A stretch of DNA of 49,995 bases from a phage: the sequence record NC_105507.1, one strand, 5' to 3'. Within the stretch, counting starts at the first letter, position 1; every line of letters starts with the position of its first letter. A program made the translations under genes and the position numbers. The notes beneath the pieces were generated by a model, which was not told where the DNA came from, did not search any database, and worked only from the letters and a program-made list of their open reading frames with translations. This document shows positions 1 through 45,430 of this stretch, piece after piece.

Positions 1-1
1 T

Positions 2-931
2 TTATAGCAGTGATTCGGGCTTGTAGAGTTTTCTTTCTACTCCCTGTTTAAAATTATCGTTAACAGGCATCATTATGTCAAGCCCTCTTTCCTCTGCCGC
101 GATTATCACATCACGATCATCTTTCCGGCAGACTACGCGCATTCTTCTTTCTCCTTTATATCTATGCGCAACCATTTCAAGATTTGAAGGAGTAAAACAG
201 GCCCACACCTCTTGACCAGTTGATAAATGAACATGCTGAGAATCAACCCAATCAAGGCACAAATAGATCGTCTTATCTGTACTACCTGTTTTAACAACAG
301 ATCCGCGCGTGTAGTCGCGAGCTAAAAACCAATCCTTTCCATCCTCATCAATGAAAAGCACGTTACACATTTCATCATCCAGCCCGTCATCATGCACCAG
401 GTGACAAGGTAGCGCGTGAATGTATCGACCATCCTTGACGCCGCAATCATAATGACAATCTTCCGGCGGATATATCCCCTCATAAACGCTTAAAGGTGTG
501 CGATCGAATTTTAATGTTTTTGCCATCACTTTTTCGCAACATTCATGACTTGCCTGTTTCCCGAACGAGTAACCAGAAGAACGCGAAGCGCGTTTGTTTG
601 CTCTGATCCTGTAATCTTGTGGCACTTTTCCGAGGAAGCGGCCCAAAATGTTGATGGCCTCGCTGTAAGGTTCGCCAGTTAATTTCATTAACCAACCGAT
701 CCCCGTGTCGTTGCCGCACACGTTGCAGATCGCGCCGCCGTCGCCCTCTTCATTTAGCTTATCAGTCCATCTAAAACGATCCTTACCGCCGCAGTGTGGG
801 CAAGGTTGATGCTTTTTGTTGAAAACATCGCTATGCAGTCCGCAAATGCTTTGTAGTGCTTCACGCCATAACCCCTTCATATATGGCAAAACATCTTCTT
901 TCTGATAGGTCATAAAGTTTTCAGTATTCAT
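2..931 (-). CDS. DNA primase-like protein (Zn-ribbon plus TOPRIM-like region)
   Basis: CPHCGG...CNVCG zinc-ribbon near N-terminus; start placed at ATG 931 with GAGG RBS (track ORF runs to GTG 1009); stop TAA at 2-4. Confidence 0.6.
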   Translation of the reverse strand: MNTENFMTYQKEDVLPYMKGLWREALQSICGLHSDVFNKKHQPCPHCGGKDRFRWTDKLNEEGDGGAICNVCGNDTGIGWLMKLTGEPYSEAINILGRFLGKVPQDYRIRANKRASRSSGYSFGKQASHECCEKVMAKTLKFDRTPLSVYEGIYPPEDCHYDCGVKDGRYIHALPCHLVHDDGLDDEMCNVLFIDEDGKDWFLARDYTRGSVVKTGSTDKTIYLCLDWVDSQHVHLSTGQEVWACFTPSNLEMVAHRYKGERRMRVVCRKDDRDVIIAAEERGLDIMMPVNDNFKQGVERKLYKPESLL

Positions 932-944
932 GGCAAACCTCAAT

Positions 945-985
945 AAAAAAGCCCAGCAAATATTATCATTTCGCTGGGCCTTATC
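945..985 (-). terminator. rho-independent terminator (minus strand)
   Basis: GCCCAGC/GCTGGGC 7-bp stem followed by T6 on minus strand, directly after stop of 987..1463. Confidence 0.5.
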
Positions 986-986
986 A

Positions 987-1463
987 TTAGCTATTCGTGC
1001 TGTTATCACCTTTGTAGAATCGTCCGCCTGGTTCGTAGTCTGAATTTTTGACTACGCGCAACATATCGTATTTGTCGCAACGGGTAGTAAGAGGCTTACC
1101 GTTAGAATCAAACCGCAGATCTGGACGACAAAATGATGCGCGGTATCCTTTGCATCCATTATATTTGTAGTCGTTATGCACCTTTTGTGCTCCAGCGGCT
1201 GAAATCATACCACGCTTTCGCCACTGGTTAACGACTTGCTGAGATACGCGCAGACGTCGAGCCATAGCAGGAACGCCGCCGTAATACTCGATCAGAATGT
1301 CAAGGCGAGATTTCAGGCTTGCTTTTACCTCATCTCGCAGGATAAGAAATCCGGTTCGGTGTTTTCGTGGTTTTTTGTCTTTACCTCGTCGCGTTCCGTT
1401 GTTACCGTTAATAGTGCGCTTGTCGATCTCACCCGTAGATACTGCAATTCGTGCATCTTTCAT
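987..1463 (-). CDS. HTH DNA-binding protein (Cro/YdaS-like)
   Basis: helix-turn-helix-like segment GVPAMARRLRVSQQVVNQWRKRG; GAGGTG RBS 5 nt upstream of ATG 1463. Confidence 0.55.
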   Translation of the reverse strand: MKDARIAVSTGEIDKRTINGNNGTRRGKDKKPRKHRTGFLILRDEVKASLKSRLDILIEYYGGVPAMARRLRVSQQVVNQWRKRGMISAAGAQKVHNDYKYNGCKGYRASFCRPDLRFDSNGKPLTTRCDKYDMLRVVKNSDYEPGGRFYKGDNSTNS

Positions 1464-1475
1464 CTAGTCACCTCA

Positions 1476-1518
1476 TAGCATTTTTTGTTAAAACAGTTTA
1501 TTGTAATGAGTCTATTAT
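1476..1518 (+). promoter_or_regulatory. TAGCAC-box promoter-like cassette
   Basis: TAGCATTTTTTGTTAAAAC box then TATTAT 22 bp after TTGTTA; upstream of helicase gene. Confidence 0.5.
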
Positions 1519-1550
1519 ATACTCCAAATGGCATTTTTTAAAGGTTTAAG

Positions 1551-3548
1551 ATGATTCCAAATATCGAAAAACAAATATCAGCATTAGGCGAGGCAGTAAT
1601 AAAAAGCATCCAAGAGCGATTCACGGTTGGCAATATAGTGCCTTATCCTTATCAGTGCGTTGCGTATGCAGAGATCGCAAAGCGCATGAAAAACTATGAG
1701 CATCCTTTCTTTGTTAAGGCTTCTGTATCGGCTGGCAAAACATTGATGTTTGCGATGGTTGCGGCGCAATGCCGCAAAATGGGATTGAAAATGATGGTCC
1801 TTGCTCGCCAGGCTGAAATTGTTGATCAGGATTCGGAAGAGATCAGCAATCTTGGCGTGCCAAACTCAATCTATTGCGCCGGACTGAAAACAAAAAGCGC
1901 ATACTTTCCGATCGTAGTCGGTTCTGAGGGCACTGTAGTAAACGGATTGTTTAAGTCGTTAGGTGATTATGTTCCGCACGTTATCGGTATTGATGAATGT
2001 CACCAGGTGGATTGGGAGGATCTCGCGGACGCGATAGAAAATAATGAATCTTACCAGCAGATGACCACTAAGAAGGATTTGCCAGTACTGATTGGAGAAG
2101 AACAGCAATTTGATTCCAATGGCGATCCAATGTTCGGAACAGGGCGCACACAGTACACCGTAATAATCATGGAAATGATGCGCAGGTGTCGCGAGGCATA
2201 CGGGCACGAATTGCGAATATTCGGCATGACTGGATCTGAGTTTCGCGGCGTGGTTCCAATACTGGTTGAAGATAAGAACAAAAAGGGATTCTGGCGTGAG
2301 CAAGTAACTAACATAGACACAAACTACTTAATCAAATTCGGTTCGGTAGTGCCAACAAATTTCGGCGACGTCGGCGACCTGGGGTATGACCTTTCAGAGT
2401 TCGAGGCCAGTAGCGAGGACGGCGTTTCAGACTTTGACGCTAAAACATTGCGCAAGATGGAAGAAAAGATCCATCAAGACGCAACAATGACACAGAAAAT
2501 CATGGCTAAAGTCCATGAGATATGCAAAGACAGGAACGGAGTTTTAGTTACATGCGCAGGGGAAAGGCACTGCAAGGAGGCCGCCGCCGCACTGCCGCCA
2601 GGCGTTGAATACAGGATCATAACTGGCAAGACTGGAGATAATCAGCGTAAAGAGTGGCTGAGGGAGGCATACGAGGGAAAAGTAAAATACATCTTCCAGG
2701 TACAGGCGCTTACCACTGGCGTTAACGTTCCGTTTTGGGATACTTCGGTAATGCTGAGAAAGATAGGATCTCTAACATTGCTTATCCAGCTTTTGGGGCG
2801 CGGCATGCGACTGCTTAAGCAATGGCACATTGAACAGGGATTCAAGAAAAAAGATCATCTTGTATTGGATTTTGCAGGTACTATGGATGAGTTAGGTGAT
2901 TTGTATTTCGATCCAATCCTTGAGCAAGCGCAATTCCAAAAGAGATTTACAAACGGGAAAGAGCCTAAGACTTGTCCGATATGTGGAACGCTAAACAGCT
3001 TTTACGCTCGCCGATGTATGCACGTAGACGATAACGGGAAGCGATGTGAGCATTTTTGGACTTACAGAATTTGCGAGGACCAGGTAGATCCGAGAACGAA
3101 AAAGATAATCAAGCGCGGTTGTGGAACAAAAAACGACGTAGTGGCGAGAGTATGCCGTTGTTGCGATATTTCTCTTGTCGATCCTAACGAGAAGTTAAGC
3201 GGTAAGCACTACACCAAAAACGATTGGTGCAACGTTAAATCTTTCCGCGTTGATATGACGAAAAACCAGAAAGGAATTATTTTTTGCTATGAGCTTGAGG
3301 CCAACGGCGATACGTTCAAGGCATACGAAAGATTTTTCCCTGAGTCAGAAAGCAACATTTGCCGGACGATATGGAGAAAAATAGCATTGCAGCACATACC
3401 GGATCGCAAGATTGCTGGTATGGTGGCGAGCTATAGAAATGCTCGTAAAATAATGTCATACGCTCATCACATCATGCCGCCTGTACGCGTAACGCATCGC
3501 AAAAACGGCAAAGGTGAGGATAACATTGCAAAACGGGAGTTTGTTTAA
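1551..3548 (+). CDS. SF2 DNA helicase with C-terminal Zn-ribbons
   Basis: Walker A SAGKT, DECH box, LLGRGMRL motif VI-like; C-terminal CxxC clusters. Confidence 0.85.
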   Translation: MIPNIEKQISALGEAVIKSIQERFTVGNIVPYPYQCVAYAEIAKRMKNYEHPFFVKASVSAGKTLMFAMVAAQCRKMGLKMMVLARQAEIVDQDSEEISNLGVPNSIYCAGLKTKSAYFPIVVGSEGTVVNGLFKSLGDYVPHVIGIDECHQVDWEDLADAIENNESYQQMTTKKDLPVLIGEEQQFDSNGDPMFGTGRTQYTVIIMEMMRRCREAYGHELRIFGMTGSEFRGVVPILVEDKNKKGFWREQVTNIDTNYLIKFGSVVPTNFGDVGDLGYDLSEFEASSEDGVSDFDAKTLRKMEEKIHQDATMTQKIMAKVHEICKDRNGVLVTCAGERHCKEAAAALPPGVEYRIITGKTGDNQRKEWLREAYEGKVKYIFQVQALTTGVNVPFWDTSVMLRKIGSLTLLIQLLGRGMRLLKQWHIEQGFKKKDHLVLDFAGTMDELGDLYFDPILEQAQFQKRFTNGKEPKTCPICGTLNSFYARRCMHVDDNGKRCEHFWTYRICEDQVDPRTKKIIKRGCGTKNDVVARVCRCCDISLVDPNEKLSGKHYTKNDWCNVKSFRVDMTKNQKGIIFCYELEANGDTFKAYERFFPESESNICRTIWRKIALQHIPDRKIAGMVASYRNARKIMSYAHHIMPPVRVTHRKNGKGEDNIAKREFV

Positions 3549-8487: not shown

Positions 8488-8809
8488 CGCCCATCTCCCC
8501 TATTCTAGCAATATCCCTGATCCAGTCGTTGCGCATACCATCCAGGCTATACAATTCGAATCCGAAAGGCCGCTTTGACGATCCTTTGGACCAGTATTTA
8601 CCGCAGACCCCATCTATATAGCCAGCCGTCATCATTCTTGCGCAAAATTCCTTAGATGCAAGGCTGGCGAACATTCGCGGCGTAAGTCCGGCGGCCCGTG
8701 CGAGCCGCTCACATTCTCTATGCTGATAGATAAATTTGGCTATGTGCTGCCTGTTAAACCAGTCGTATGACTCACACCATTTATACAGATCAAGCAAAAA
8801 CATAATCAT
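8414..8809 (-). CDS. hypothetical protein
   Basis: ORF tightly coupled to upstream 526-aa gene. Confidence 0.55.
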   Translation of the reverse strand: MIMFLLDLYKWCESYDWFNRQHIAKFIYQHRECERLARAAGLTPRMFASLASKEFCARMMTAGYIDGVCGKYWSKGSSKRPFGFELYSLDGMRNDWIRDIARIGEMGDDELFQAKANRQDLEALRRKFNIT

Positions 8810-10386
8810 CCCAGCAGTATTGGATTGACAAAAATAACACCATTAATCACACAAACATAATTTCTTTCTTCCAGCATTGGCAGCAAGTGCCCTTCTATCC
8901 TCTTCATTACGCCAGCCTGACCAACGAAAGGTTTTACCTTTCTCGCTGATTCGTACAGGGCGCGAATATTCAGAATCCCTTTATTAGCCTTGCCGTGTCT
9001 AGTGATCAATTCAATCAATTTGCCCATTTCAGCATCATCACCAGCATAACCAGAAGCATTGGCGGCGCTAATGTATGTTTTGCTCAATTCCTGAAACATG
9101 ATCAACGCCTCTTGCATTGTTTCCACGTCGATCTCTTTCGACTTCTGCGGGTATCCAGCAGGATTAAACCAGTTGCGGATAACATGCAGGACGGAAGCAA
9201 GCCTGATCACCTGTTTATCCATTTTACCCAGCGCACCGCGTAACATTGTATGAGAATACTTTCCGCCGTCTGCAAGATGCGGTTCCATATCCTGGCGAGC
9301 AATGTTGAGCACTCGCATAGCTGAGCGGCTTATTTTCAGCGATATATTTGATTCGCTCATGATGTTATGCACCAATTGATAATATTGGGCCTTCAATTCA
9401 GGATCCACCGCCTCATAGGTAGAATCACCATTTTCATCAATGAATGAGCGACGGCCTAAGAATGATTCCTCACGGACCAACAAAAAGCGCTCACTCACAC
9501 CGATACCGCGCGATCCAGCGTCCATGATTCCGCTTATCGTTTCATCCTGGGCTATAACGCTCATACATCCAAGCGCGCGAAAACTCATGTTATTGTCAGC
9601 ATTAGCACGGGCAATTGATACGTGACCATTATCCCACGCCTTAAGCACTAGCTCGCTGTTAGTCTTCCTTTCGCTATTGGCATAGGTCAAGCCTAACAGG
9701 CTGTTAATACTTGTTGCTTCGTCAGATATTACGGCAAAGTTACCTTGCTTGTTGTTGATTTTCGCCAAGCCTTCTGGAGTTGTATCTGAAACAGGAAAAG
9801 TTATATCACACATTTTTTCCAGCTTTTCCTCCAGATCCTCTTTTTCCTGGTATAGAGATTCCATATCAGCGCCGGATCTTTCGCTTTTCATCTCCTTTGC
9901 AAGACCTGCCAGCTTTGCCTGTATTTTCTTTCTTTCCTTGCGGCGTTGCTCGTTGATCTTCTCAACTTCCGCAATCATCGGAGCAATAGCCATGCTGTTG
10001 ATCGCAGATTTACCAGTTGACGGCGGCTGGCTTGTAACGACGTAAAGCGCAGTCGGCTGATCGGTTCCGTGATAGTCAACCGTAAAGCGTCCAAGCATAG
10101 CGGCAGAAATGCAGCCGATAAAGTGCATGTAAGCCGATGATTCAGGGAATTGAACGGATCGCGCAATGCTGCGTGATAACTTGCCGACAACATCAATATC
10201 ATTACCAAGAGAAATAACGGGGTAGCGATCGTGACCGCTATTCACATCCTTTACGTCGCCCCAAAAGCTGGACGACTGGCGATAGCCGTTAGCCTGAATT
10301 GATACGCGAACTGGCGAAAGGTTCTGGCTTTCAGCCATAGCGATTATTTGTTGTGGAGTTAATTTGTTCGTTTCTAATGAAAACAT
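8806..10386 (-). CDS. P-loop NTPase-like protein (SF3-helicase-like Walker A/B), function unknown
   Basis: PPSTGKS Walker A-like and FAVISDEA Walker B-like segments, coiled-coil insert; AAGGAG RBS. Confidence 0.6.
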   Translation of the reverse strand: MFSLETNKLTPQQIIAMAESQNLSPVRVSIQANGYRQSSSFWGDVKDVNSGHDRYPVISLGNDIDVVGKLSRSIARSVQFPESSAYMHFIGCISAAMLGRFTVDYHGTDQPTALYVVTSQPPSTGKSAINSMAIAPMIAEVEKINEQRRKERKKIQAKLAGLAKEMKSERSGADMESLYQEKEDLEEKLEKMCDITFPVSDTTPEGLAKINNKQGNFAVISDEATSINSLLGLTYANSERKTNSELVLKAWDNGHVSIARANADNNMSFRALGCMSVIAQDETISGIMDAGSRGIGVSERFLLVREESFLGRRSFIDENGDSTYEAVDPELKAQYYQLVHNIMSESNISLKISRSAMRVLNIARQDMEPHLADGGKYSHTMLRGALGKMDKQVIRLASVLHVIRNWFNPAGYPQKSKEIDVETMQEALIMFQELSKTYISAANASGYAGDDAEMGKLIELITRHGKANKGILNIRALYESARKVKPFVGQAGVMKRIEGHLLPMLEERNYVCVINGVIFVNPILLG

Positions 10387-12564: not shown

Positions 12565-12777
12565 TCATTTCTTATTTTTCATCTTAAATTTATGGCCTGG
12601 AACACCAGCACCAATATAGCCATCGTTGTATTCCATTAAATAAAGGTGAAGGCCATTATCTGAAATTACATGAGGATCTTCTTTGAGATTTCCCATTAGC
12701 GGGTATTCTTTTCCGCGCGTAAATCTCCAATTTGAGTTATAAGTTTCTACGCATTTAAGTTTTAATTGCTTTGCCAT
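12565..12777 (-). CDS. hypothetical protein
   Basis: ORF in leftward early cluster. Confidence 0.5.
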   Translation of the reverse strand: MAKQLKLKCVETYNSNWRFTRGKEYPLMGNLKEDPHVISDNGLHLYLMEYNDGYIGAGVPGHKFKMKNKK

Positions 12778-12974
12778 TAGATGATCTCCATGTATGTTTC
12801 AAAGCCATTTAACTTGAACAGGCCGTTTTCACATTTGCGAACGTTCCAAGTTAGCCCTGAGTGGTACGCCTCCATATCATCAAGGTCAATGGTGATTTCA
12901 GCACCTTTCTTAAACAAACATTTTTCGTGAGACTTGTCGCGCTTAACAACTTTAACATCAACCTGATTTTCCAT
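12777..12974 (-). CDS. hypothetical protein
   Basis: start moved to ATG 12974 with GAGGA RBS; track GTG start at 13025 would overlap the box cassette. Confidence 0.5.
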   Translation of the reverse strand: MENQVDVKVVKRDKSHEKCLFKKGAEITIDLDDMEAYHSGLTWNVRKCENGLFKLNGFETYMEII

Positions 12975-13749: not shown

Positions 13750-14003
13750 TTTTTCTTCTCCTGCAATAAGCAAACATCATTGATAAAATCAGCACGGCCC
13801 TTAATGTTGCTGATGTGGAACGTCTTTTCAGCGTACAGGCCATCACCTTCAATCACGATCATTACGCGAGTCGGTTTATTCACGGGCGCACGAGAAAAGA
13901 GTGGTCGCACCGGAAGAAATTTAGTCATCACATCAAGGTTAGCCCTGGCGGCCCTGCAAAACGCCTCCGCCAGATCCAAATCATTTTCGGTAATCACCGC
14001 CAT
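13737..14003 (-). CDS. hypothetical protein
   Basis: ORF in leftward early cluster. Confidence 0.5.
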   Translation of the reverse strand: MAVITENDLDLAEAFCRAARANLDVMTKFLPVRPLFSRAPVNKPTRVMIVIEGDGLYAEKTFHISNIKGRADFINDVCLLQEKKKCWM

Positions 14004-14275
14004 TACTTCTTAATCTCCTTACTGATAAATTTCAGCACCTGGCGCAAGAAAACCTCGTTGTTGATAGTCGCTGGCAATTCTTCTTTCACTTCTTGCGGCA
14101 GATAGATATTGCCGTGCCAGGTCAAGCAATCGTAGTTGATACGATAAGAGCAAAGCCACTCGCAATCGTTATCTGCTTCCCATATGCAGAGTTGCAGAAC
14201 ATCGCCAAAATCTTCAACAGTCAGATCCAGACCGTGACGCTTAGCGAAATTGAAAGTGGTTTTGCTGATGTTCAT
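14003..14275 (-). CDS. hypothetical protein (first gene of leftward early operon)
   Basis: AGGAG RBS; directly downstream of box cassette. Confidence 0.55.
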   Translation of the reverse strand: MNISKTTFNFAKRHGLDLTVEDFGDVLQLCIWEADNDCEWLCSYRINYDCLTWHGNIYLPQEVKEELPATINNEVFLRQVLKFISKEIKK

Positions 14276-14310
14276 TTACTATCTCCTGAGCGGTTCGTTT
14301 CGATGTGTGT

Positions 14311-14353
14311 AATGTACCCGATCAGGCGGCCTGAGTTTTAACAAAAAGCGCTA
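14311..14353 (-). promoter_or_regulatory. TAGCAC-box promoter-like cassette (leftward early)
   Basis: box variant TAGCGC, TCAGG/CCTGA hairpin, TACATT at 22-bp spacing. Confidence 0.5.
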
Positions 14354-14383
14354 TTTGACGGTTAGCACCAGGATTGTGATCGA

Positions 14384-14474
14384 AATAATCAAAAGTAATC
14401 ATTCGTAATCAAATCACGTCAAAATGATGATTGCCTTTGCAAATTTGATGAGAAAAGTAATCACGTTTAATCAT
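14384..14474. repeat. phased iteron-like array (TAATCA x5)
   Basis: TAATC at about 14386, 14396, 14406 (10-bp phasing) and 14458, 14468. Confidence 0.5.
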
Positions 14475-14649
14475 TGGTTGCAGTGGAGATAGTGAAACCT
14501 TCCCCTCTTGCCTCACTTTTCCGCCTGGCTGTCAGTGGTTGTTGTCTTTTGTTCACCCCTGTTACCGATTTCAGGCGGCGTGTTTCCGCGCGGTTTTCCG
14601 GTGTAGCGAAAACGGAAAAAACAAAGAAAATCCTCTATAATACATTGAA

Positions 14650-14810
14650 AATAAAGATTATTTATTTATATATATCTATAATGTTTTCTTTTTGTTCTCA
14701 CTGTTACAGTGCTTTTTGTTGGTTATGGTGTGGTTGTGTGTGGGTATATATGGATAGTTGCGCGCGCGGCGGATTGCATATGTATATATACTTTTTCCGG
14801 CGGATTGCGT
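14650..14810. repeat. AT/GT-rich intergenic element, copy A (homologous to 44060-44205)
   Basis: shared blocks TTTATTTATTTA, T-rich CTTGTT, GT-rich GGTT repeats, CATRTGTATRTATATA..CCGGCG; contains direct repeat CGGCGGATTGC x2. Confidence 0.5.
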
Positions 14811-14909
14811 TAACAGCGTGAACAGAAAAATAACAGCCGCGAAATCAATAACTTGCGCATGATTTTGTAGTTTTTCGATATTGGTAACGTTTTGAATACA
14901 ACAAAAACA

Positions 14910-14937
14910 TTGACACGCACCAAATAGCTTTTATAAT
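14910..14937 (+). promoter_or_regulatory. consensus sigma70-type promoter (rightward early)
   Basis: TTGACA-16 bp-TATAAT, about 30 bp upstream of RBS/ATG 14969. Confidence 0.7.
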
Positions 14938-14968
14938 GCGCCAACAGTCAACAACTGGAGGAAAGGAA

Positions 14969-15430
14969 ATGGAACAGAAGACCACTAAGGACTATTGCGA
15001 TTGGCTTCGCGAGCTTGGTCGCCGCCTGGCTAGTGGCGATATTGAAGAGTATAAAATGTCACTAATTGACCTGGCCGGAATGTTAAGCGGTGACGACTGC
15101 TACAAGATCACGCGCAGTTCATCCTACAGCCGGACCATTATCAACCGCGTTCCAGAAGTAAGGGCCGCAGGTCGGGTAAGCATCAAGGTAGAGGAAACGG
15201 AAGATGATAAATTTTACGTTTTCCGCATGGTCCGAGAATCGAAAAGGAAAATCATCACGCCAGAAGAATTGCCAGCCATCAAGGCAAGGGCGATCAAAAA
15301 GTTTGCCGATCGCTTACTGGCAGCAATCCCGAATATCGTTGACCTGGAAGGGGATAAACTGGCTGGGGCTTGCGAGGGCGTAAGCCGCTACCAGGATATG
15401 ATCCGCGAAATCATCAAAGAGGAAGAGTAA
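14969..15430 (+). CDS. hypothetical protein (first rightward early gene)
   Basis: GGAGG RBS 7 nt before ATG 14969; track ORF start 14936 lies inside the -10. Confidence 0.55.
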   Translation: MEQKTTKDYCDWLRELGRRLASGDIEEYKMSLIDLAGMLSGDDCYKITRSSSYSRTIINRVPEVRAAGRVSIKVEETEDDKFYVFRMVRESKRKIITPEELPAIKARAIKKFADRLLAAIPNIVDLEGDKLAGACEGVSRYQDMIREIIKEEE

Positions 15431-15702
15431 TGAAAAAGGCATTAATCAGCGTTTTGGCGGCAATGGCATTCCTGACCGGATGCAAAGAAAATGGCGCGCA
15501 TGTTGGCAATGTGCAGATGGCTAACCCTGGTGATGACTACAGCGTAAGGGAGCTATTCACCGCTGACGGTTGCACCGTTTACCGATTCTATGACGATCGC
15601 ACTGTTTACTTCACCAACTGCAAGGGCACTACTAGCCGGGAAGTGTCGAAAAGCAATGGCAAAGGCACGAAGACAGAACATATGACCGTCGAGACAAAAT
15701 AG
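15430..15702 (+). CDS. lipoprotein (candidate superinfection-exclusion/receptor-blocking)
   Basis: signal peptide with lipobox LTGC (MKKALISVLAAMAFLTGC); TAATG overlap with upstream gene. Confidence 0.7.
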   Translation: MKKALISVLAAMAFLTGCKENGAHVGNVQMANPGDDYSVRELFTADGCTVYRFYDDRTVYFTNCKGTTSREVSKSNGKGTKTEHMTVETK

Positions 15703-22675: not shown

Positions 22676-23203
22676 ATGGCTAAAAATGTTGAGCCTGCTG
22701 TAAAGGCATTAAATTTCAAAGAGTTATACAATAAAACTTATGGCGATATTGTCACGCTAAACAACCGCCACAAGTACACGCCGGAACAGGTTTTTGATAT
22801 GGCGATCCGCTATTTCACTTGGGCTGAAGAGAATCACATCCAGGCGGCTGAAACTGCTTCCTTTCAGGGTGACGTGTACGAGAGCAGAGTTTACAAGCCT
22901 CGCGTTTTCACGGTTAACGGATTCAGCTTGTATCTCGGCGTGACTGAGGCTGCCGTAAGCAAATGGCGTAAAGAGCCTGGATTCTGCGATGTGATGGAGT
23001 TTGTTGATAAAGTAATTTACGAGCAAAAATTCCAGCTTGCGGCAAATAACATGATTAATGCTGGATTTATCGGTAAAGAGATCGGCGTAGAGAAGCCAGC
23101 AACAGTGAGCGTTGAAGCTAGCGCGGCAGCTAATGCAAGCATTGACGCAGTAACTGCCGATGAGGTGAAAGAGGCTGTTATTGATATTCTGGAGCAACTT
23201 TAA
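22676..23203 (+). CDS. terminase small subunit
   Basis: HTH-like segment, position immediately upstream of large terminase; AGGAGG RBS. Confidence 0.7.
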   Translation: MAKNVEPAVKALNFKELYNKTYGDIVTLNNRHKYTPEQVFDMAIRYFTWAEENHIQAAETASFQGDVYESRVYKPRVFTVNGFSLYLGVTEAAVSKWRKEPGFCDVMEFVDKVIYEQKFQLAANNMINAGFIGKEIGVEKPATVSVEASAAANASIDAVTADEVKEAVIDILEQL

Positions 23204-24771
23204 TGATCATATGGGAAGATTTGACGGCGGCGCAAAAGCGAGCCATTAAAGAAATCAGTGAGCATTCATTCGAAAAGATGATCAGAATCTGGTTTCAGTT
23301 ATTGCAGGGGCAAAAATTCCAGAGCAACTGGCATTTTAGCTTATTGTGCAGTGAGGTAGAGAAGATCATCAATGGAGAGTCGCAGAATGTGATTTTCAAC
23401 ATTACGCCAGGTAGCGGTAAGACTGAGATTTTCTCGATCCACATGTCACCATACGCGTCATTGAAAACTCGGAAGGTGAGAAACCTTAACCTTTCGTTTA
23501 GTGATGGACTTGTCCAGCAAAACAGCAACAGGATAAAGGAGATTATCGGTTCTCCTGAGTGGCAAGAGCTATGGCCAGGAAAACTGGCAAAGGCGAGCGC
23601 AAAAGATCTCATAGTTACGGATGGCGGCAAGGTTAAATTGCAAGTTAACTCACGTTCTATTGGCGGACAGGTAACAGGTTTGCGTGGCGGCTATATGGAC
23701 GATGGTTTTACTGGTATGCTGGTTCTGGACGATCCAGACAAGCCGGATGATATGCTTTCTAAGGTCAAGCGTGAGGCGATCCACATGCGGTTAAAAAACA
23801 CAGTGCGATCGCGTCGAATGAAAGACACTACGCCGATTGTTATGGTGCAACAGCGACTACACGTTAATGATTCCACCTGGTTCATGCTTAATGGCGGGAT
23901 GGGCGGTATTGAGTTTAAAGTTGTGAGCATTCCTGCGCTGGTTACGAAAGAATACCGCGAAACGCTTCCTGATTGGTTGAAGCCTGAATTTGATCGTGAT
24001 GTGTTGTCAAGTAAGCCAGTGATGATAGATGGCGTTGCTCATTATTCATTTTGGCCTGCGAAGGAAAGCGCGGAGGAATTGCTTGCATTGCGCAATGCAG
24101 ATCCTTATACGTTCGCCAGTCAGTACCAACAGCAACCCATCGCGCTTGGCGGCAACGTGTTTAAAACAGAGTGGTTCCAGTATTACGGCAGCGGCGAAAA
24201 ATGCGCACTTCCTAAACCGGATCGCTTTGAATACACATTTATTACTGGTGATACCGCGCAGAAGGCCGGAGAGCTTAACGACTATTCAGTTTTTTGTTAT
24301 TGGGGGATGTATAAGAATCGCGTTTACTTCATTGATGGCATTCGCGGAAAGTGGGAAGCGCCGGATCTTGAATTAAATTTTATTGCCTTCGTTAATCAGT
24401 GCTGGAAGCGCAATAAGGAGTGTGGCAGCTTGCGACGTATCCACATTGAGGATAAGGCCAGCGGCACGGGTTTGATTCAGGGGGCCAAAAAGAAGATCCC
24501 GATTGATATAAATCCCGTTCAGCGAAGCAATGACAAGGTAACGCGAGCAATGGACGCCGCGCCAGTAATGAGGGCCGGACGTGTGGCACTGCCAGAAAGT
24601 CATCCCATGTTACCTGAGATACTGGCAGAGGTTGCAGCGTTCACTTTTGACGATTCTCATCCCCATGATGATATTGTCGATAATATAGTTGATGCTGTTA
24701 ACGTCGAAATGAACTTGGCTGATGATCCGGTAGCAAGGATGAAAAAGCTGGCTGGTCTACGCAATAAATAG
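23203..24771 (+). CDS. terminase large subunit
   Basis: 522 aa, P-loop-like TPGSGKT, acidic C-terminal nuclease region, synteny. Confidence 0.85.
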   Translation: MIIWEDLTAAQKRAIKEISEHSFEKMIRIWFQLLQGQKFQSNWHFSLLCSEVEKIINGESQNVIFNITPGSGKTEIFSIHMSPYASLKTRKVRNLNLSFSDGLVQQNSNRIKEIIGSPEWQELWPGKLAKASAKDLIVTDGGKVKLQVNSRSIGGQVTGLRGGYMDDGFTGMLVLDDPDKPDDMLSKVKREAIHMRLKNTVRSRRMKDTTPIVMVQQRLHVNDSTWFMLNGGMGGIEFKVVSIPALVTKEYRETLPDWLKPEFDRDVLSSKPVMIDGVAHYSFWPAKESAEELLALRNADPYTFASQYQQQPIALGGNVFKTEWFQYYGSGEKCALPKPDRFEYTFITGDTAQKAGELNDYSVFCYWGMYKNRVYFIDGIRGKWEAPDLELNFIAFVNQCWKRNKECGSLRRIHIEDKASGTGLIQGAKKKIPIDINPVQRSNDKVTRAMDAAPVMRAGRVALPESHPMLPEILAEVAAFTFDDSHPHDDIVDNIVDAVNVEMNLADDPVARMKKLAGLRNK

Positions 24772-36539: not shown

Positions 36540-36892
36540 TAATGAAGCTGGATCAGTTTAAGTGGTGTACGCAGGTTCAGAACGGCGGCGGGTCCATGAC
36601 GTCATCAAATAACGATCGAGAGATTGCATTCGGTAACGGATACACTCAGGTAGCATCTGGAGGTTTTAACACAATCAGGCGAGAGTTTAGCATTGTTTAC
36701 GCTGGGCTTGATTACAGAGATGTTGTCAAGTTCCTGAATGAGCACAGGCTAAAACCTTTCTTGTGGATCATGCCAGATGGAAGCCCTGGGTTGTTTAGGG
36801 TTAAAAGCGGTAGCGTCGGGCTTACCCCATTGTCGCCAACCGTTCAGGAAGTAAAAGCCACTTTTACGGAACAATTTACATCAATGCAGTAA
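36536..36892 (+). CDS. minor tail protein (lambda M-like)
   Basis: size and FGNGYTQ..FLW pattern comparable to lambda M; synteny. Confidence 0.85.
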   Translation: MIMKLDQFKWCTQVQNGGGSMTSSNNDREIAFGNGYTQVASGGFNTIRREFSIVYAGLDYRDVVKFLNEHRLKPFLWIMPDGSPGLFRVKSGSVGLTPLSPTVQEVKATFTEQFTSMQ

Positions 36893-43946: not shown

Positions 43947-44059
43947 TTTGTTATTTTTTGTTTTCCGGTGTTATCGAATTTAAGACGGCGTAAATTTAGC
44001 GCAAAATTTAGACAACATAAGATCAATAAACAATCAACAAAATAGATATATACATATAA

Positions 44060-44205
44060 AATCAATAGTTTATTTATTTATGTATGTATATTTGTTTTTT
44101 CTTGTTATCTGCGTTTCTTGTGGTTTTGGTTGTTTGTGGTGATTTTTCTTTCTGAGTATCTGTATGTGCCATCATTCATGTGTATGTATATAATCCGGCG
44201 TATCT
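44060..44205. repeat. AT/GT-rich intergenic element, copy B (homologous to 14650-14810)
   Basis: same block order as copy A. Confidence 0.5.
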
Positions 44206-44316
44206 GAGAGAACATGGGAACAAGAAAAATAACACAAATTAATCATTAACTTATGAGTCAAATCTGTTTTCTTGCCATCTGAGAACGTTTAGAAAACAGA
44301 AAAAACAAAACAGCTA

Positions 44317-44344
44317 TTGACTAAATCAACCAAATGGCTACAAT
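44317..44344 (+). promoter_or_regulatory. sigma70-type promoter for recombination module
   Basis: TTGACT-16 bp-TACAAT about 30 bp upstream of AAGGAG RBS/ATG 44375. Confidence 0.6.
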
Positions 44345-44374
44345 GCACACATAAAGCAACAAGGAGCATTAAAG

Positions 44375-45430
44375 ATGAGTGATTTTAACGCCTACACTAG
44401 CGAAGAAATGAGCAACGAGCTTTATCATGATCCTAACGCGTGGACGGCTGAATATGTCAGCGGTTCCAGCCTGGCGGAGATTTACAGCACTTGCCCGGCG
44501 TACTGGAAGTACAAGCCGCGCCAGGAAACTAAAGCACTTGTTTTCGGTACGCAGTCGCATACCAACTTTGAAAGCAAGGAGCTATTCGAAAAAACATATC
44601 GCCGCGCACCGTCGCAGGATGATTTTAAAGACCTGATCACTAGTCAAACGGCGTTAGCATCAAAGCTGAAATCTTTTGGCCTGAAAGGTACGACGGGTAA
44701 ACAATACCCTGAATTACTGGAAATGCTGTACAAGTGCGGCGAGGATCTCAATGTGTGGTGGCTTATCGAAATGATGGCAGAATGCCAGGCCGCAGCGGAC
44801 GGAGTGCAGTTAATAGACGCTAAAGATTATGATGCCTGTGTAGCGATGCGGCGCGTACTTGAGGCCATACCGGAGCATAACGCTTGCATGAACAGCCCAA
44901 CCGCGCAGCGTGAAATGTCAATATTTGGGATCATCAACGGCGTAAAAGTAAAAGTGCGTCTTGATCACGTTGACGTAAACAAGGATGTAAAGGCAACAAT
45001 CATTAACGGTTACGACGAAAAAGGCAGGCCGATTTATGAAGAAGTCACCTATCCAGAAGCGGTGATTATCACTGACTACAAAACAACGGTTAGCGCAAAT
45101 CCGGTTGACTTCCAGCGCCTGGCTTACAATCACGGCTATTATCTTAAAATGGCTTTGCAACATGACTTATTCAAAAAGGCTTATCCAGACGAGGAAAGGC
45201 CAGTAATTGTAAGATTGCTTGCGCAGGAGAAGAAAGAGCCTTACTTGCCGCTTGCTTTCCGTATGAATATTGAGCAATTGAAGATCGGGCGCATCCAGTA
45301 CATGAGCGTGATCAACAAGTTCAACGTTTGCCAGCAGTTAGACGAATGGCCTTCGTATGCAAACGGGCAACCGGAAATTGATCTTGATACTCCTGATTGG
45401 GTTCGTGCTCAATTCAGGCATTATCTTTGA
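44375..45430 (+). CDS. recombination exonuclease (PD-(D/E)XK, RecB-like nuclease domain)
   Basis: LDHVD ... ITDYKTT ... Q..Y motifs; adjacent to Erf and SSB. Confidence 0.6.
   Translation: MSDFNAYTSEEMSNELYHDPNAWTAEYVSGSSLAEIYSTCPAYWKYKPRQETKALVFGTQSHTNFESKELFEKTYRRAPSQDDFKDLITSQTALASKLKSFGLKGTTGKQYPELLEMLYKCGEDLNVWWLIEMMAECQAAADGVQLIDAKDYDACVAMRRVLEAIPEHNACMNSPTAQREMSIFGIINGVKVKVRLDHVDVNKDVKATIINGYDEKGRPIYEEVTYPEAVIITDYKTTVSANPVDFQRLAYNHGYYLKMALQHDLFKKAYPDEERPVIVRLLAQEKKEPYLPLAFRMNIEQLKIGRIQYMSVINKFNVCQQLDEWPSYANGQPEIDLDTPDWVRAQFRHYL

What the first reader, a model, noticed from the sequence alone, without database searches (positions are those of the whole stretch)
14384..14474. Helically phased TAATCA iteron array in the main divergent control region
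TAATC(A) occurs at about 14386, 14396 and 14406 with exact 10-bp spacing and again at 14458 and 14468. Same-face phased repeats are typical of iterons bound by an initiator or of a cooperative regulator array. They sit between the leftward early promoter cassette and the AT-rich element.
Basis: seen in the sequence. Interest (0 to 1): 0.55.

Follow-up and report, generated by a model that had tools for sequence, protein, structure and literature searches.

The report
Phased TAATCA repeats beside the packaging start
Five identical TAATCA hexamers on one face of the DNA helix are real, and they lie directly beside the spot where related T1-like phages start packaging their DNA, so they are more likely the phage's packaging-recognition (pac) signal than replication iterons, although no binding protein has been shown.

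Summary
TAATCA occurs five times on the + strand at 14386, 14396, 14406, 14458 and 14468. All copies lie on one helical face. It is the only such cluster in the window and is far beyond chance.

The window is a Warwickvirus, a T1-like phage of Drexlerviridae. The array lies in the 660-bp divergent intergenic region, 82-169 bp upstream of the leftward promoter.

Related phages keep the AATCA/TGATT core at the same place but arrange it differently. Hanrivervirus has TTAATCA-NN-TGATTAA with invariant arms and a free spacer. That pattern indicates a protein-binding site.

This same segment holds the physical genome ends of relatives: T1 position 1 (the start of its annotated repeat_region 1..2800), the TLS pac position, and sequencing-based ends in MSK, SU57 and GS166. 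The three sequencing-based ends fall 0-35 nt to the right of a conserved purine box, which lies at 14482-14498 here.

My best explanation, at about 0.45, is a pac recognition array for the P22-gp3-type small terminase. Its repeat anatomy resembles the hexamer repeats of the P1 pac site.

The rivals are an operator array for an early regulator, origin iterons, and a host factor or DNA curvature. The binding protein is not identified, and no packaging end has been mapped in this genus.

The parts
14386..14411 (+). Cluster A: three TAATCA hexamers at exact 10-bp spacing (14386, 14396, 14406).
   Evidence: Identical in five Warwickvirus relatives.
14458..14473 (+). Cluster B: two TAATCA hexamers at 10-bp spacing (14458, 14468). 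They are in helical phase with cluster A. The last copy runs into ATCATTGGTTGCAG, the counterpart of the GATTGTTGCA motif of T1, PHB17, SRT8 and MSK.
14412..14457 (.). 46-bp spacer between the clusters. It holds degenerate copies (AAATCA at about 14411-14416; TGATTG at 14428-14433, which is CAATCA on the - strand) and a small palindrome TTGC-CTTT-GCAA at 14431-14442. TTGC(A)-N4-7-(T)GCAA palindromes recur at this place in T1, MSK, PHB17 and SRT8.
14371..14382 (+). Conserved left flank GGATTGTGATCG. It is homologous to GGATTGTGAGA in Hanrivervirus and ATGATTGTGAGA in T1, and it contains one TGATCG (GATC) site.
14482..14498 (+). Conserved purine-rich box AGTGGAGATAGTGAAAC, directly to the right of the array. 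Counterparts are GGAGGGGATAGAGAAAC (Hanrivervirus), AGTGAGTGAGTAGAAAT (TLS and GS166), GGTGAGTGAGTGAATGAAAG (MSK and SU57) and GGGGAGAGGTTATAGAGTGAAAC (SRT8).
14485..14530 (+). Predicted zone of the first packaging cut, with packaging running rightward. This is inferred by homology only. The GS166 end falls at the end of the box, the MSK PhageTerm peak 13 nt past it and the SU57 end 31 nt past it. The XY3 and haarsle records are cut inside the box.
   Evidence: PMC8421802, PMC7718038 and PMC12896672. Not measured in this phage.
14311..14354 (-). Leftward early promoter of the genome-wide cassette type. On the - strand it reads ATAGCGCTTTTTGTTAAAAC, then 18 nt, then TACATT. It drives the gene at 14003-14275. 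The array lies at about -82 to -169 relative to its inferred transcription start near 14304.
   Evidence: (families D1-D5, I13, I14).
22676..23203 (+). Small terminase (TerS), the favoured candidate binder. It is P22 gp3-like.
   Evidence: Pfam PF16677, E 3.8e-11. PDB 3P9A, E 1.7e-15. It is 66/74-75/53-55% identical to WaterSpirit, aaroes and T1, against 91/93/65% for TerL.
23203..24771 (+). Large terminase (TerL), the nuclease/ATPase that would make the cut.
   Evidence: Pfam Terminase_6C; annotated as terminase large subunit in relatives.
987..1463 (-). Cro/YdaS-like HTH protein encoded next to the primase gene; the alternative candidate binder. Its recognition-helix region VSQQVVNQWRKRG is nearly invariant across genera.

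Best explanation
The TAATCA array is most likely the recognition part of the phage's pac site, where headful DNA packaging starts.

Proposed mechanism:
1. The small terminase (22676-23203, P22 gp3 family, an oligomeric ring in P22) binds the five hexamers, which all face one side of the helix, together with the degenerate copies between them. This bends or wraps the DNA.
2. The large terminase then makes the first cut a few tens of bp to the right, in or just past the purine box (about 14485-14530).
3. Packaging runs rightward through the early genes.

Shown here:
- The array is real, phased and unique in the genome.
- Its AATCA/TGATT core is conserved at this place across Drexlerviridae, with free spacers.
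- The homologous segment holds the mapped packaging ends in five relatives.
- The phage has a headful-type terminase.

Inferred:
- That TerS is the binding protein.
- The position of the cut in this phage.
For: 1. Physical ends of relatives fall in the homologous segment.
- The T1 record carries repeat_region 1..2800, and its position 1 lies 162 bp past the start of the last leftward gene, among GTGATTGTTGC repeats.
- TLS position 1 was placed by restriction mapping of the pac fragment (PMC11447400). It lies inside a cluster of TGATCA, TGATTG, TGATTT and TGATTA hexamers.
- The MSK PhageTerm start is 36,862, forward, p = 1.6e-9 (PMC8421802). That is 222 bp from the leftward gene's start codon, directly to the right of the hexamer cluster and purine box.
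- The SU57 ends were set at a step in read coverage (PMC7718038) and lie 18 nt from the MSK peak.
- The GS166 ends were checked with PhageTerm (PMC12896672) and fall at the end of the purine box.

2. The array is the only such cluster in the genome, as expected for a single cis-acting site.

3. The core is conserved while the arrangement changes. In nine distinct Hanrivervirus sequences the arms TTAATCA and TGATTAA are invariant and the 2-bp spacer takes four forms. WaterSpirit has TGATTAATCA.

4. The terminase is of the headful type: TerS matches PF16677 and 3P9A. TerS is much more diverged between lineages than TerL, as expected if TerS and pac co-evolve.

5. There is precedent. The P1 pac site is built of seven TGATCA/G hexamers in groups of 4 and 3 (PMC10028697). 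SPP1 TerS makes multiple contacts flanking the cut (PMC9611059).
Against: - No binding or cleavage data exist for this phage or its genus. All mapped ends come from other genera or subfamilies.
- T1 position 1 and TLS position 1 lie about 60-100 bp to the left of the sequencing-based ends, so the cut position is only approximate.
- The cut predicted by homology lies to the right of both clusters, not between them as in P1.
- P22, whose TerS is the closest solved homologue, uses a single 22-bp asymmetric site inside its terS gene. Here the best match to that sequence is 11 of 22, and the array is 8 kb upstream of terS.
- TerS-pac binding is weak and hard to show even in model phages (PMC9611059).
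- The shared AATCA core would fit the Cro-like protein, whose helix is invariant, at least as well as TerS, whose variable patches differ in every lineage.
- The TerS divergence follows phylogeny, so it is not independent evidence.
- The three substitutions seen inside the array span in close relatives all fall outside the hexamers, but that has a chance probability of about 0.29.
Confidence: 0.45

Rival explanations
1. Operator or enhancer array for a phage-encoded transcription regulator, for example the Cro/YdaS-like HTH protein (987-1463). The regulator would bind cooperatively on one face of the DNA upstream of the leftward early promoter and switch early leftward transcription on or off. 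It might also insulate the two divergent transcription units.
For: - The array lies in the main divergent control region, 82-169 bp upstream of the leftward cassette promoter.
- In relatives, the slot right next to that promoter holds textbook operator-like palindromes: TTATTCCAnCTATTCCA...GGAATAACAGGAATAA in Hanrivervirus, WaterSpirit, T1 and SRT8, and TAGACCGATTGGTCTA twice in TLS and GS166. Regulators therefore do act in this region.
- The Hanrivervirus TTAATCA-NN-TGATTAA is a classic dimer site.
- The HTH protein's recognition helix is nearly invariant across genera, which matches the conserved AATCA core.
Against: - The array does not overlap any promoter element, and it is about 440 bp from the rightward sigma-70 promoter at 14910-14937.
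- The motif does not recur at the roughly 20 other promoters of the genome; no other stretch has more than 2 copies in 90 bp.
- No regulator gene is adjacent. Pfam and PHROGs found no DNA-binding domain in the neighbouring genes.
- This reading does not explain why the packaging ends of five relatives fall at this element.
Confidence: 0.2
2. Iterons of a replication origin. A phage initiator (the Cro-like HTH protein next to the primase, or the DUF3987 helicase at 8806-10386) would bind the phased repeats and open the AT-rich element at 14620-14700.
For: - The repeats are direct and on one helical face, and an 86% A+T stretch lies about 150-200 bp away.
- The origin of T1-like phages is unknown, and no iterons have been reported for them (PMC11447400; PMC7718038).
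- The phage encodes a primase, two helicases and an HTH protein fused to the replication module.
- A local dip in GC skew falls here.
Against: - Only a 6-bp core repeats, not a 17-22-bp unit.
- The direct arrangement is not conserved in relatives.
- There is no DnaA box; the best match is 5 of 8.
- The AT-rich/GT-rich module is not unique. A paralogue sits at 43950-44375 without any array, and it is tandemly duplicated in JK16.
- The global GC-skew and AT-skew minima are at 1474-1539, between the primase/HTH genes and the helicase gene. The skew simply follows transcription direction.
- No Rep or lambda-O-like initiator was found.
Confidence: 0.12
3. A site for a host protein or a purely architectural element. 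Examples are tandem binding of an OmpR-family response regulator such as CpxR, Fur, IHF or Fis, or intrinsic curvature that stimulates the leftward promoter.
For: - GTAAT-N5-GTAAT at 14395-14409 matches the CpxR box GTAAA-N5-GTAAA at 8 of 10 positions (the consensus is from memory).
- TAATCA is part of the 19-bp Fur box consensus.
- A 10-bp phasing is typical of upstream curved DNA.
Against: - All consensus matches are weak: Fur 12 of 19, CRP 7 of 10, and no IHF core in the array.
- The inverted and overlapping arrangements in Hanrivervirus and WaterSpirit do not suit tandem response-regulator binding.
- A-tracts are not consistently phased, because the spacers include TTCG and CGTT.
- An exact hexamer repeated five times indicates base-specific reading rather than curvature.
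Confidence: 0.08

Closest known systems
Bacteriophage P1 pac site (PacA/PacB pacase)
   Same: Both have short hexamer repeats in two clusters within about 90-160 bp. P1 has 7 copies of TGATCA/G arranged as HEX4 and HEX3 (PMC10028697); here there are 5 copies of TAATCA arranged 3 + 2. The two hexamers differ at one base. Relatives even carry TGATCA or TGATCG in the cluster (Hanrivervirus TTTGATCAA; TLS TGATCG and TGATCA). Both are single sites in the genome that start headful packaging.
   Different: - The P1 hexamers carry GATC and are controlled by Dam methylation; TAATCA has no GATC.
- P1 cuts between the clusters, whereas the cut predicted here lies to the right of both.
- P1 needs an IHF site, and no IHF core is present here.
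- The P1 site lies inside pacA, whereas this one is intergenic and 8 kb from terS.
- PacA is unrelated to the gp3-type TerS found here.
Bacteriophage P22 pac site and gp3 small terminase
   Same: The TerS is a clear homologue of P22 gp3 (3P9A, E 1.7e-15; PF16677). Both phages package by the headful mechanism from one pac site, in one direction.
   Different: P22 pac is a single 22-bp asymmetric sequence inside gene 3 (PMC9611059 and PMC11260489). Here the best match to it is 11 of 22. The candidate signal is a repeat array in an intergenic region far from terS.
Bacillus phage SPP1 pac (pacL / pacC / pacR) with G1P
   Same: In SPP1 the TerS makes multiple contacts that flank the cut (PMC9611059). 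From memory, the repeated boxes are phased on one face of bent DNA.
   Different: The TerS family is different (SPP1 G1P, not gp3), the box sequences are different, and SPP1 pac overlaps the start of the terminase operon. The SPP1 footprint data have themselves been questioned (PMC9611059).
Iteron-type origins (lambda ori, P4 ori/crr, plasmid iterons)
   Same: Both have direct repeats at about one helical turn next to an AT-rich stretch.
   Different: See the membership test. The unit length, the missing initiator gene, the missing DnaA boxes, the non-conserved arrangement and the non-unique AT-rich module all differ.
pSM19035 omega repressor heptad arrays (WATCACW), from memory
   Same: A short 6-7-bp unit with a similar core (AATCAC) works in either direct or inverted orientation. 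This shows that one small protein can read both arrangements.
   Different: Omega heptads are contiguous (7-bp period) and overlap promoters. No ribbon-helix-helix protein was detected in this phage with Pfam.

Membership tests
pac site of a headful-packaging phage | Coincides with the physical left end of the first headful (a sub-molar pac fragment, a PhageTerm peak or a coverage step). | tested here: inconclusive
   Met in five relatives at the homologous segment: T1, TLS, MSK, SU57 and GS166 (PMC11447400, PMC8421802, PMC7718038 and PMC12896672). No read or end data exist for this phage or any other Warwickvirus. The XY3 record ending at the equivalent of 14491 is only a hint.
pac site of a headful-packaging phage | The phage encodes a headful-type TerS and TerL. 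| tested here: met
   TerS matches PF16677 and 3P9A; TerL matches Terminase_6C.
pac site of a headful-packaging phage | A single site in the genome. | tested here: met
   Five copies here, against at most 2 per 90 bp anywhere else.
pac site of a headful-packaging phage | Specifically bound by TerS and required for the first cut. | not testable with these tools
   Needs EMSA or footprinting, pac-plasmid transduction, or mutagenesis.
P1-type hexamer pac | Two hexamer clusters flank the cleavage site. | tested here: inconclusive
   Two clusters (3 + 2) exist, separated by 46 bp. The sequencing-based ends of relatives project to the right of both (about 14485-14530). Only T1 position 1 and TLS position 1 fall inside their repeat clusters.
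P1-type hexamer pac | The hexamers contain GATC (control by Dam methylation), and an IHF site is present. | tested here: not met
   TAATCA lacks GATC; only one TGATCG lies nearby, at 14376. There is no IHF core in 14357-14500.
P22-type pac | A single 22-bp asymmetric site inside the terS gene. | tested here: not met
   The best match in the region is 11 of 22. The array is intergenic and 8.2 kb upstream of terS.
Iteron-type replication origin | Several direct repeats of a 17-22-bp unit, with the arrangement conserved among relatives. | tested here: not met
   Only 6 bp are shared between copies. Hanrivervirus has an inverted pair and WaterSpirit an overlapping palindrome.
Iteron-type replication origin | An adjacent, unique AT-rich unwinding element. 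| tested here: inconclusive
   An 86% A+T stretch is present at 14650-14699, but it is about 150-200 bp away. Its module has a paralogue at about 44.0-44.1 kb without an array and is duplicated in JK16.
Iteron-type replication origin | A cognate initiator gene and/or DnaA boxes. | tested here: not met
   Pfam and PHROGs scans of about 45 proteins found no Rep or O-like initiator. The best DnaA-box match is 5 of 8. The HTH protein next to the primase remains an untested candidate.
Operator array of a transcription regulator | The sites overlap or closely flank the core promoter they control. | tested here: not met
   The array lies at -82 to -169 relative to the leftward promoter and about 440 bp upstream of the rightward promoter. 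Activator-type upstream sites are not excluded.
Known E. coli regulator sites (Fur, CpxR, CRP, ArcA, PhoB, DnaA, IHF, Fis) | A good match to the published consensus. | tested here: not met
   Fur 12/19, CpxR 8/10, CRP 7/10, ArcA 10/15, PhoB 11/18, DnaA 5/8, no IHF match, Fis 7/9. The consensus strings are from memory, and no weight matrices were available.

The most novel reading that the evidence does not exclude
The array is the first sequence-level definition of a Drexlerviridae pac signal and also part of a combined hub. On this reading, one set of phased AATCA-core sites, read by the gp3-type small terminase, by the Cro-like protein encoded beside the primase, or by both in competition, would couple three events within a 300-bp stretch: shut-off of early leftward transcription, initiation at the neighbouring AT-rich element, and the first packaging cut. 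A gp3-family TerS reading a repeat array 8 kb from its own gene would also bear on the unresolved question of how ring-shaped small terminases achieve sequence specificity.
Probability: 0.1. Interest if true: 0.65.

Novelty: new member of a known kind. Interest (0 to 1): 0.42.

Why it matters
T1-like phages are common laboratory and industrial contaminants, therapy candidates and generalised transducers. Even so, their pac signal has only been placed roughly: by restriction mapping, and for TLS by a 6-bp resemblance to P22 pac. Their replication origin is unknown (PMC11447400).

A defined candidate element has several uses:
- It gives a direct experimental handle: five hexamers that can be scrambled, plus a conserved purine box next to the mapped ends.
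- It would let genome records of this family be linearised at a biological end.
- It would help in designing packaging-competent phagemids or packaging-deficient helper phages.
- It offers a tractable system for asking how a P22-gp3-type ring terminase reads DNA.

If the operator or iteron reading turns out to be right instead, the same mutants would reveal it.

Tried and rejected
1. Chance was rejected.

2. A promoter inside the array was rejected. The only + strand hit is a 9-of-12 match (TTAGCA-16-AATAAT at 14362-14389), which is no better than shuffled sequence. The - strand candidates lack a usable -10 (and by eye).

3. Host-factor sites were weak. I tested Fur, CpxR, CRP, ArcA, PhoB, DnaA, IHF and Fis against consensus strings.

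4. P22-like pac sequence: 11 of 22.

5. GC skew as an origin marker was uninformative. It follows transcription direction, and the global minimum is at 1474.

6. I looked for a co-varying protein by comparing 63 window proteins with WaterSpirit, aaroes and T1. The genomes are mosaic, and both candidate binders are moderately diverged, so the test does not discriminate. The recombination breakpoint between the window and WaterSpirit lies at the boundary between the cassette and the array.

7. TerS variable patches lie at residues 23-34, 89-95 and 143-160. I could not establish which patch, if any, reads DNA. I could not retrieve the P22 gene 3 specificity-mutant papers.

8. Scans of IMG/VR and of metagenomes for TAATCA-N4-TAATCA-N4-TAATCA returned 120 hits each, mostly unrelated tandem repeats and giant-virus contigs, and no new homologues of the array.

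9. Substitutions in close relatives avoid the hexamers, but there are only 3 events (P about 0.29), so this is not evidence.

10. Record ends of XY3, haarsle and G29-2 fall at the purine box, but their papers report no end mapping. I treat this as a hint only.

Full report
**What the window is.** The region 13900-15500 is 97-99% identical to many Escherichia phages of Drexlerviridae, Tempevirinae, genus Warwickvirus. Examples are Phunderstruck and JLBYU01, and JLBYU01 shares the window's coordinates. The phage is therefore a virulent T1-like siphovirus.

**The observation.** TAATCA occurs on the + strand at 14386, 14396, 14406, 14458 and 14468.
- The spacings are 10, 10, 52 and 10 bp. At 10.4-10.5 bp per turn all five copies lie within 42-69 degrees of each other, so they share one helical face.
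- Elsewhere in the window no 90-bp stretch has more than two copies on one strand.
- The Poisson probability for five copies is about 1e-9 per window. None of 3000 dinucleotide-preserving shuffles of the intergenic region produced any hexamer five times within 90 bp.
- Only the hexamer is shared between copies. Degenerate copies (AAATCA, and TGATTG on the other strand) lie between the two clusters.

**Setting.** The array lies in a 660-bp intergenic region between a leftward gene (14003-14275) and a rightward gene (14969-15430).
- The leftward promoter belongs to a cassette that recurs about 20 times in the genome. Its copy here occupies 14311-14354 on the - strand, which puts the array at about -82 to -169.
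- A perfect sigma-70 promoter (TTGACA-16-TATAAT, 14910-14937) drives the rightward genes.
- Between the array and that promoter lie a G+C-rich stretch, an 86% A+T element (about 14620-14700), a GT-rich stretch and further repeats.
- This right-hand module has a paralogue at 43950-44375, upstream of the recombination genes, with no TAATCA array. It is tandemly duplicated in phage JK16.

The AT-rich element is therefore not unique, whereas the array is.

**Comparison with relatives.**
- Five other Warwickvirus sequences carry the identical array. The few substitutions fall outside the hexamers, but there are too few of them to count as evidence.
- WaterSpirit and BabyEgg are also Warwickvirus and are 93-97% identical in the leftward genes. 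Their sequence to the right of the promoter cassette is different. It holds TTATTCC repeats, then CGATTGATTGCG and the overlapping palindrome TGATTAATCA.
- Nine distinct Hanrivervirus sequences have a TTATTCC palindrome next to the cassette, followed by TTAATCA-NN-TGATTAA. Both spacer positions of that site vary (GT, GG, AG, GA) while the arms never do. This is the signature of a protein-binding site with an uncontacted spacer.
- More distant lineages carry clusters of the same core in other forms at the same place: GTGATTGTTGC repeats in T1, SRT8, PHB17 and MSK, and TGATCG, TGATCA, TGATTG, TGATTT and TGATTA in TLS and GS166.
- In every lineage the cluster is followed on the right by a purine-rich box. 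In the window it is AGTGGAGATAGTGAAAC at 14482-14498.

**The lead that changed the interpretation.** The T1 reference record is linearised inside this very intergenic region and carries the annotation repeat_region 1..2800. I read that feature as the terminal redundancy of the first headful; the record gives it no note. T1 position 1 lies 162 bp beyond the start of the last leftward gene, in the middle of the repeat cluster.

Four other phages give ends at the same place:
- For TLS, position 1 was set from restriction mapping of the sub-molar pac fragment (PMC11447400). It also falls inside its hexamer cluster.
- For MSK, PhageTerm gave a forward packaging start at 36,862 with p = 1.6e-9 (PMC8421802). 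That position is 222 bp from the leftward gene's start codon, 13 nt past the purine box and to the left of the AT-rich element.
- For SU57, the ends were placed at an abrupt change in read frequency (PMC7718038). They lie 18 nt from the MSK peak.
- For GS166, a Tlsvirus in the same subfamily as the window, the ends were checked with PhageTerm (PMC12896672). The record ends right at the end of the purine box.

The three sequencing-based ends thus fall 0-35 nt to the right of the box. In window coordinates this projects to about 14485-14530, directly to the right of the array, with packaging running rightward.

**The terminase.** The phage has a headful-type terminase. TerS (22676-23203) matches Pfam GP3_package and the solved P22 gp3 structure 3P9A. 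TerS is much more diverged between lineages than TerL: 66/74-75/53-55% against 91/93/65% identity to WaterSpirit, aaroes and T1. It has variable patches at residues 23-34, 89-95 and 143-160. This is what co-evolution with a changing pac signal would give. It also follows phylogeny, however, and I could not establish which patch reads DNA.

**Best explanation.** The array is the recognition part of the pac site. There is precedent. The P1 pac site is made of seven TGATCA/G hexamers in groups of four and three (PMC10028697), and SPP1 TerS contacts several sites flanking the cut (PMC9611059). The differences from both are listed in the membership test:
- There is no GATC in the hexamers.
- There is no IHF core.
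- The predicted cut lies beside the clusters rather than between them.
- P22 itself, the closest TerS relative, uses a single 22-bp site inside terS, to which nothing here is similar (11 of 22).

I put this explanation at about 0.45, because the binding protein is inferred and no end has been mapped in this genus.

**Rivals.**
- An operator or enhancer array for a phage regulator is the strongest rival (about 0.2). The neighbouring slot in relatives holds clear operator-like palindromes. The only recognisable HTH regulator (987-1463, Cro/YdaS-like) has a nearly invariant recognition helix, which would suit the conserved AATCA core. Against it, the array overlaps no promoter, the motif does not recur at other promoters, and the reading does not explain the packaging ends.
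The repeat unit, its non-conserved arrangement, the absence of DnaA boxes and of an initiator gene, the non-unique AT-rich module and the GC-skew minimum at 1474 all speak against it. On the other hand, the origin of T1-like phages is unknown, so it cannot be excluded.
- A host-factor site or curvature gets about 0.08, because the consensus matches are weak.
- These readings are not mutually exclusive. A pac site, an early control region and perhaps an origin may be packed into the same 600 bp.

**Novelty and interest.** The approximate position of pac in T1-like phages was already implied by the T1 and TLS records. None of the papers I read describes the phased hexamer array, its conserved core or the purine box. 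[quoted passage not shown] If the explanation holds, this is a new member of a known kind, namely a repeat-built pac site. The interest is moderate: it is useful and directly testable, but not surprising in principle.

**Seen in passing.** The 21-nt cassette, whose function is listed as an open question for T1-like phages (PMC11447400), fits the mar/sox/rob box consensus AYnGCACnnWnnRYYAAAY (PMC3709825). There are 16 matches with at most one mismatch, against 1.2 expected. In the five copies I examined, exactly 18 nt separate the box from a -10-like hexamer. This may deserve its own follow-up.

Noticed in passing
window 3962, 5033, 15697, 16714, 17947, 19264, 20578, 24766 (+) and 11106, 13023, 14328, 29385, 33143, 43921 (-): The genome-wide 21-nt cassette AAATAGCACTTTTTGTTAAAAC is the 'intergenic 21-base repeat' whose function is listed as an open question for T1-like phages in PMC11447400. 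It fits the mar/sox/rob box consensus AYnGCACnnWnnRYYAAAY (PMC3709825): 16 matches with at most 1 mismatch against 1.16 expected, 13 of them cassettes and 3 of those perfect. In the five copies examined, the 20-nt box is followed by exactly 18 nt and then CATAAT, TATAGT or TAAAGT. These look like activator-dependent promoters in which the activator site overlaps the -35 region. No AraC-family protein was found among the roughly 45 phage proteins scanned.
   Followed up: partly
window 43950-44375, compared with 14500-14935; locus L005 (JK16) 1480-2450: The AT-rich and GT-rich module, followed by a near-consensus sigma-70 promoter, occurs twice in the genome: upstream of 14969 and upstream of the recombination genes at 44375. 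It is tandemly duplicated around a small gene in JK16. Its function is unknown; possibilities include an immediate-early promoter context, a secondary origin or curved DNA.
   Followed up: partly
window 14550-14565 (+), 14692-14707 (+), 14811-14826 (-): A 15-16-nt element TGTTCAC(C/G)C(C)TGTTA flanks the AT-rich core as an inverted pair about 245 bp apart, with a third degenerate copy. CTGTTA occurs 4 times in the intergenic region against 0.46 expected, and 2 of the window's 5 TGTTCAC copies lie here. TGTTCACC is, from memory, the type I iteron of the phage P4 ori/crr. Hanrivervirus has CTGTTAT four times at 9-10-bp spacing at the same place.
   Followed up: partly
loci L006-L010 at about 1395-1440; L002 1290-1345; T1 junction (L027/L026); TLS junction (L033): Directly next to the leftward promoter cassette, relatives carry lineage-specific operator-like palindromes that the window lacks. 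Hanrivervirus has TTATTCCAnCTATTCCA-TTAATCA-GGAATAACAGGAATAA (two direct and two inverted copies at 10-bp spacing), with variants in WaterSpirit, T1 and SRT8. TLS and GS166 have TAGACCGATTGGTCTA twice.
   Followed up: partly
window 1464-1550: The global minima of cumulative GC skew (1474) and AT skew (1539) fall in the short divergent region between the HTH/primase operon and the helicase gene. This is an alternative place to look for an origin, although the skew here mostly follows transcription direction.
   Followed up: no
window 12777-12974 (-): A 65-aa protein matches Pfam PF25180, 'Phage antiviral trigger protein Gp54', over its full length (E 1.2e-37).
   Followed up: no
search hits: 15-20 records named 'Campylobacter phage' (MG0656xx, host Campylobacter jejuni, mostly unannotated) match this coliphage region at 82-96% identity. 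They look like T1-like coliphage sequences filed under a wrong host.
   Followed up: no
window 14474-14821 (+) and equivalents in relatives: Several database records annotate hypothetical proteins across the intergenic region, for example JLBYU01_30 and JLBYU01_31, and four small ORFs in WaterSpirit. These ORFs run through the repeat, pac and AT-rich elements, are not conserved between lineages, and are probably not genes.
   Followed up: no
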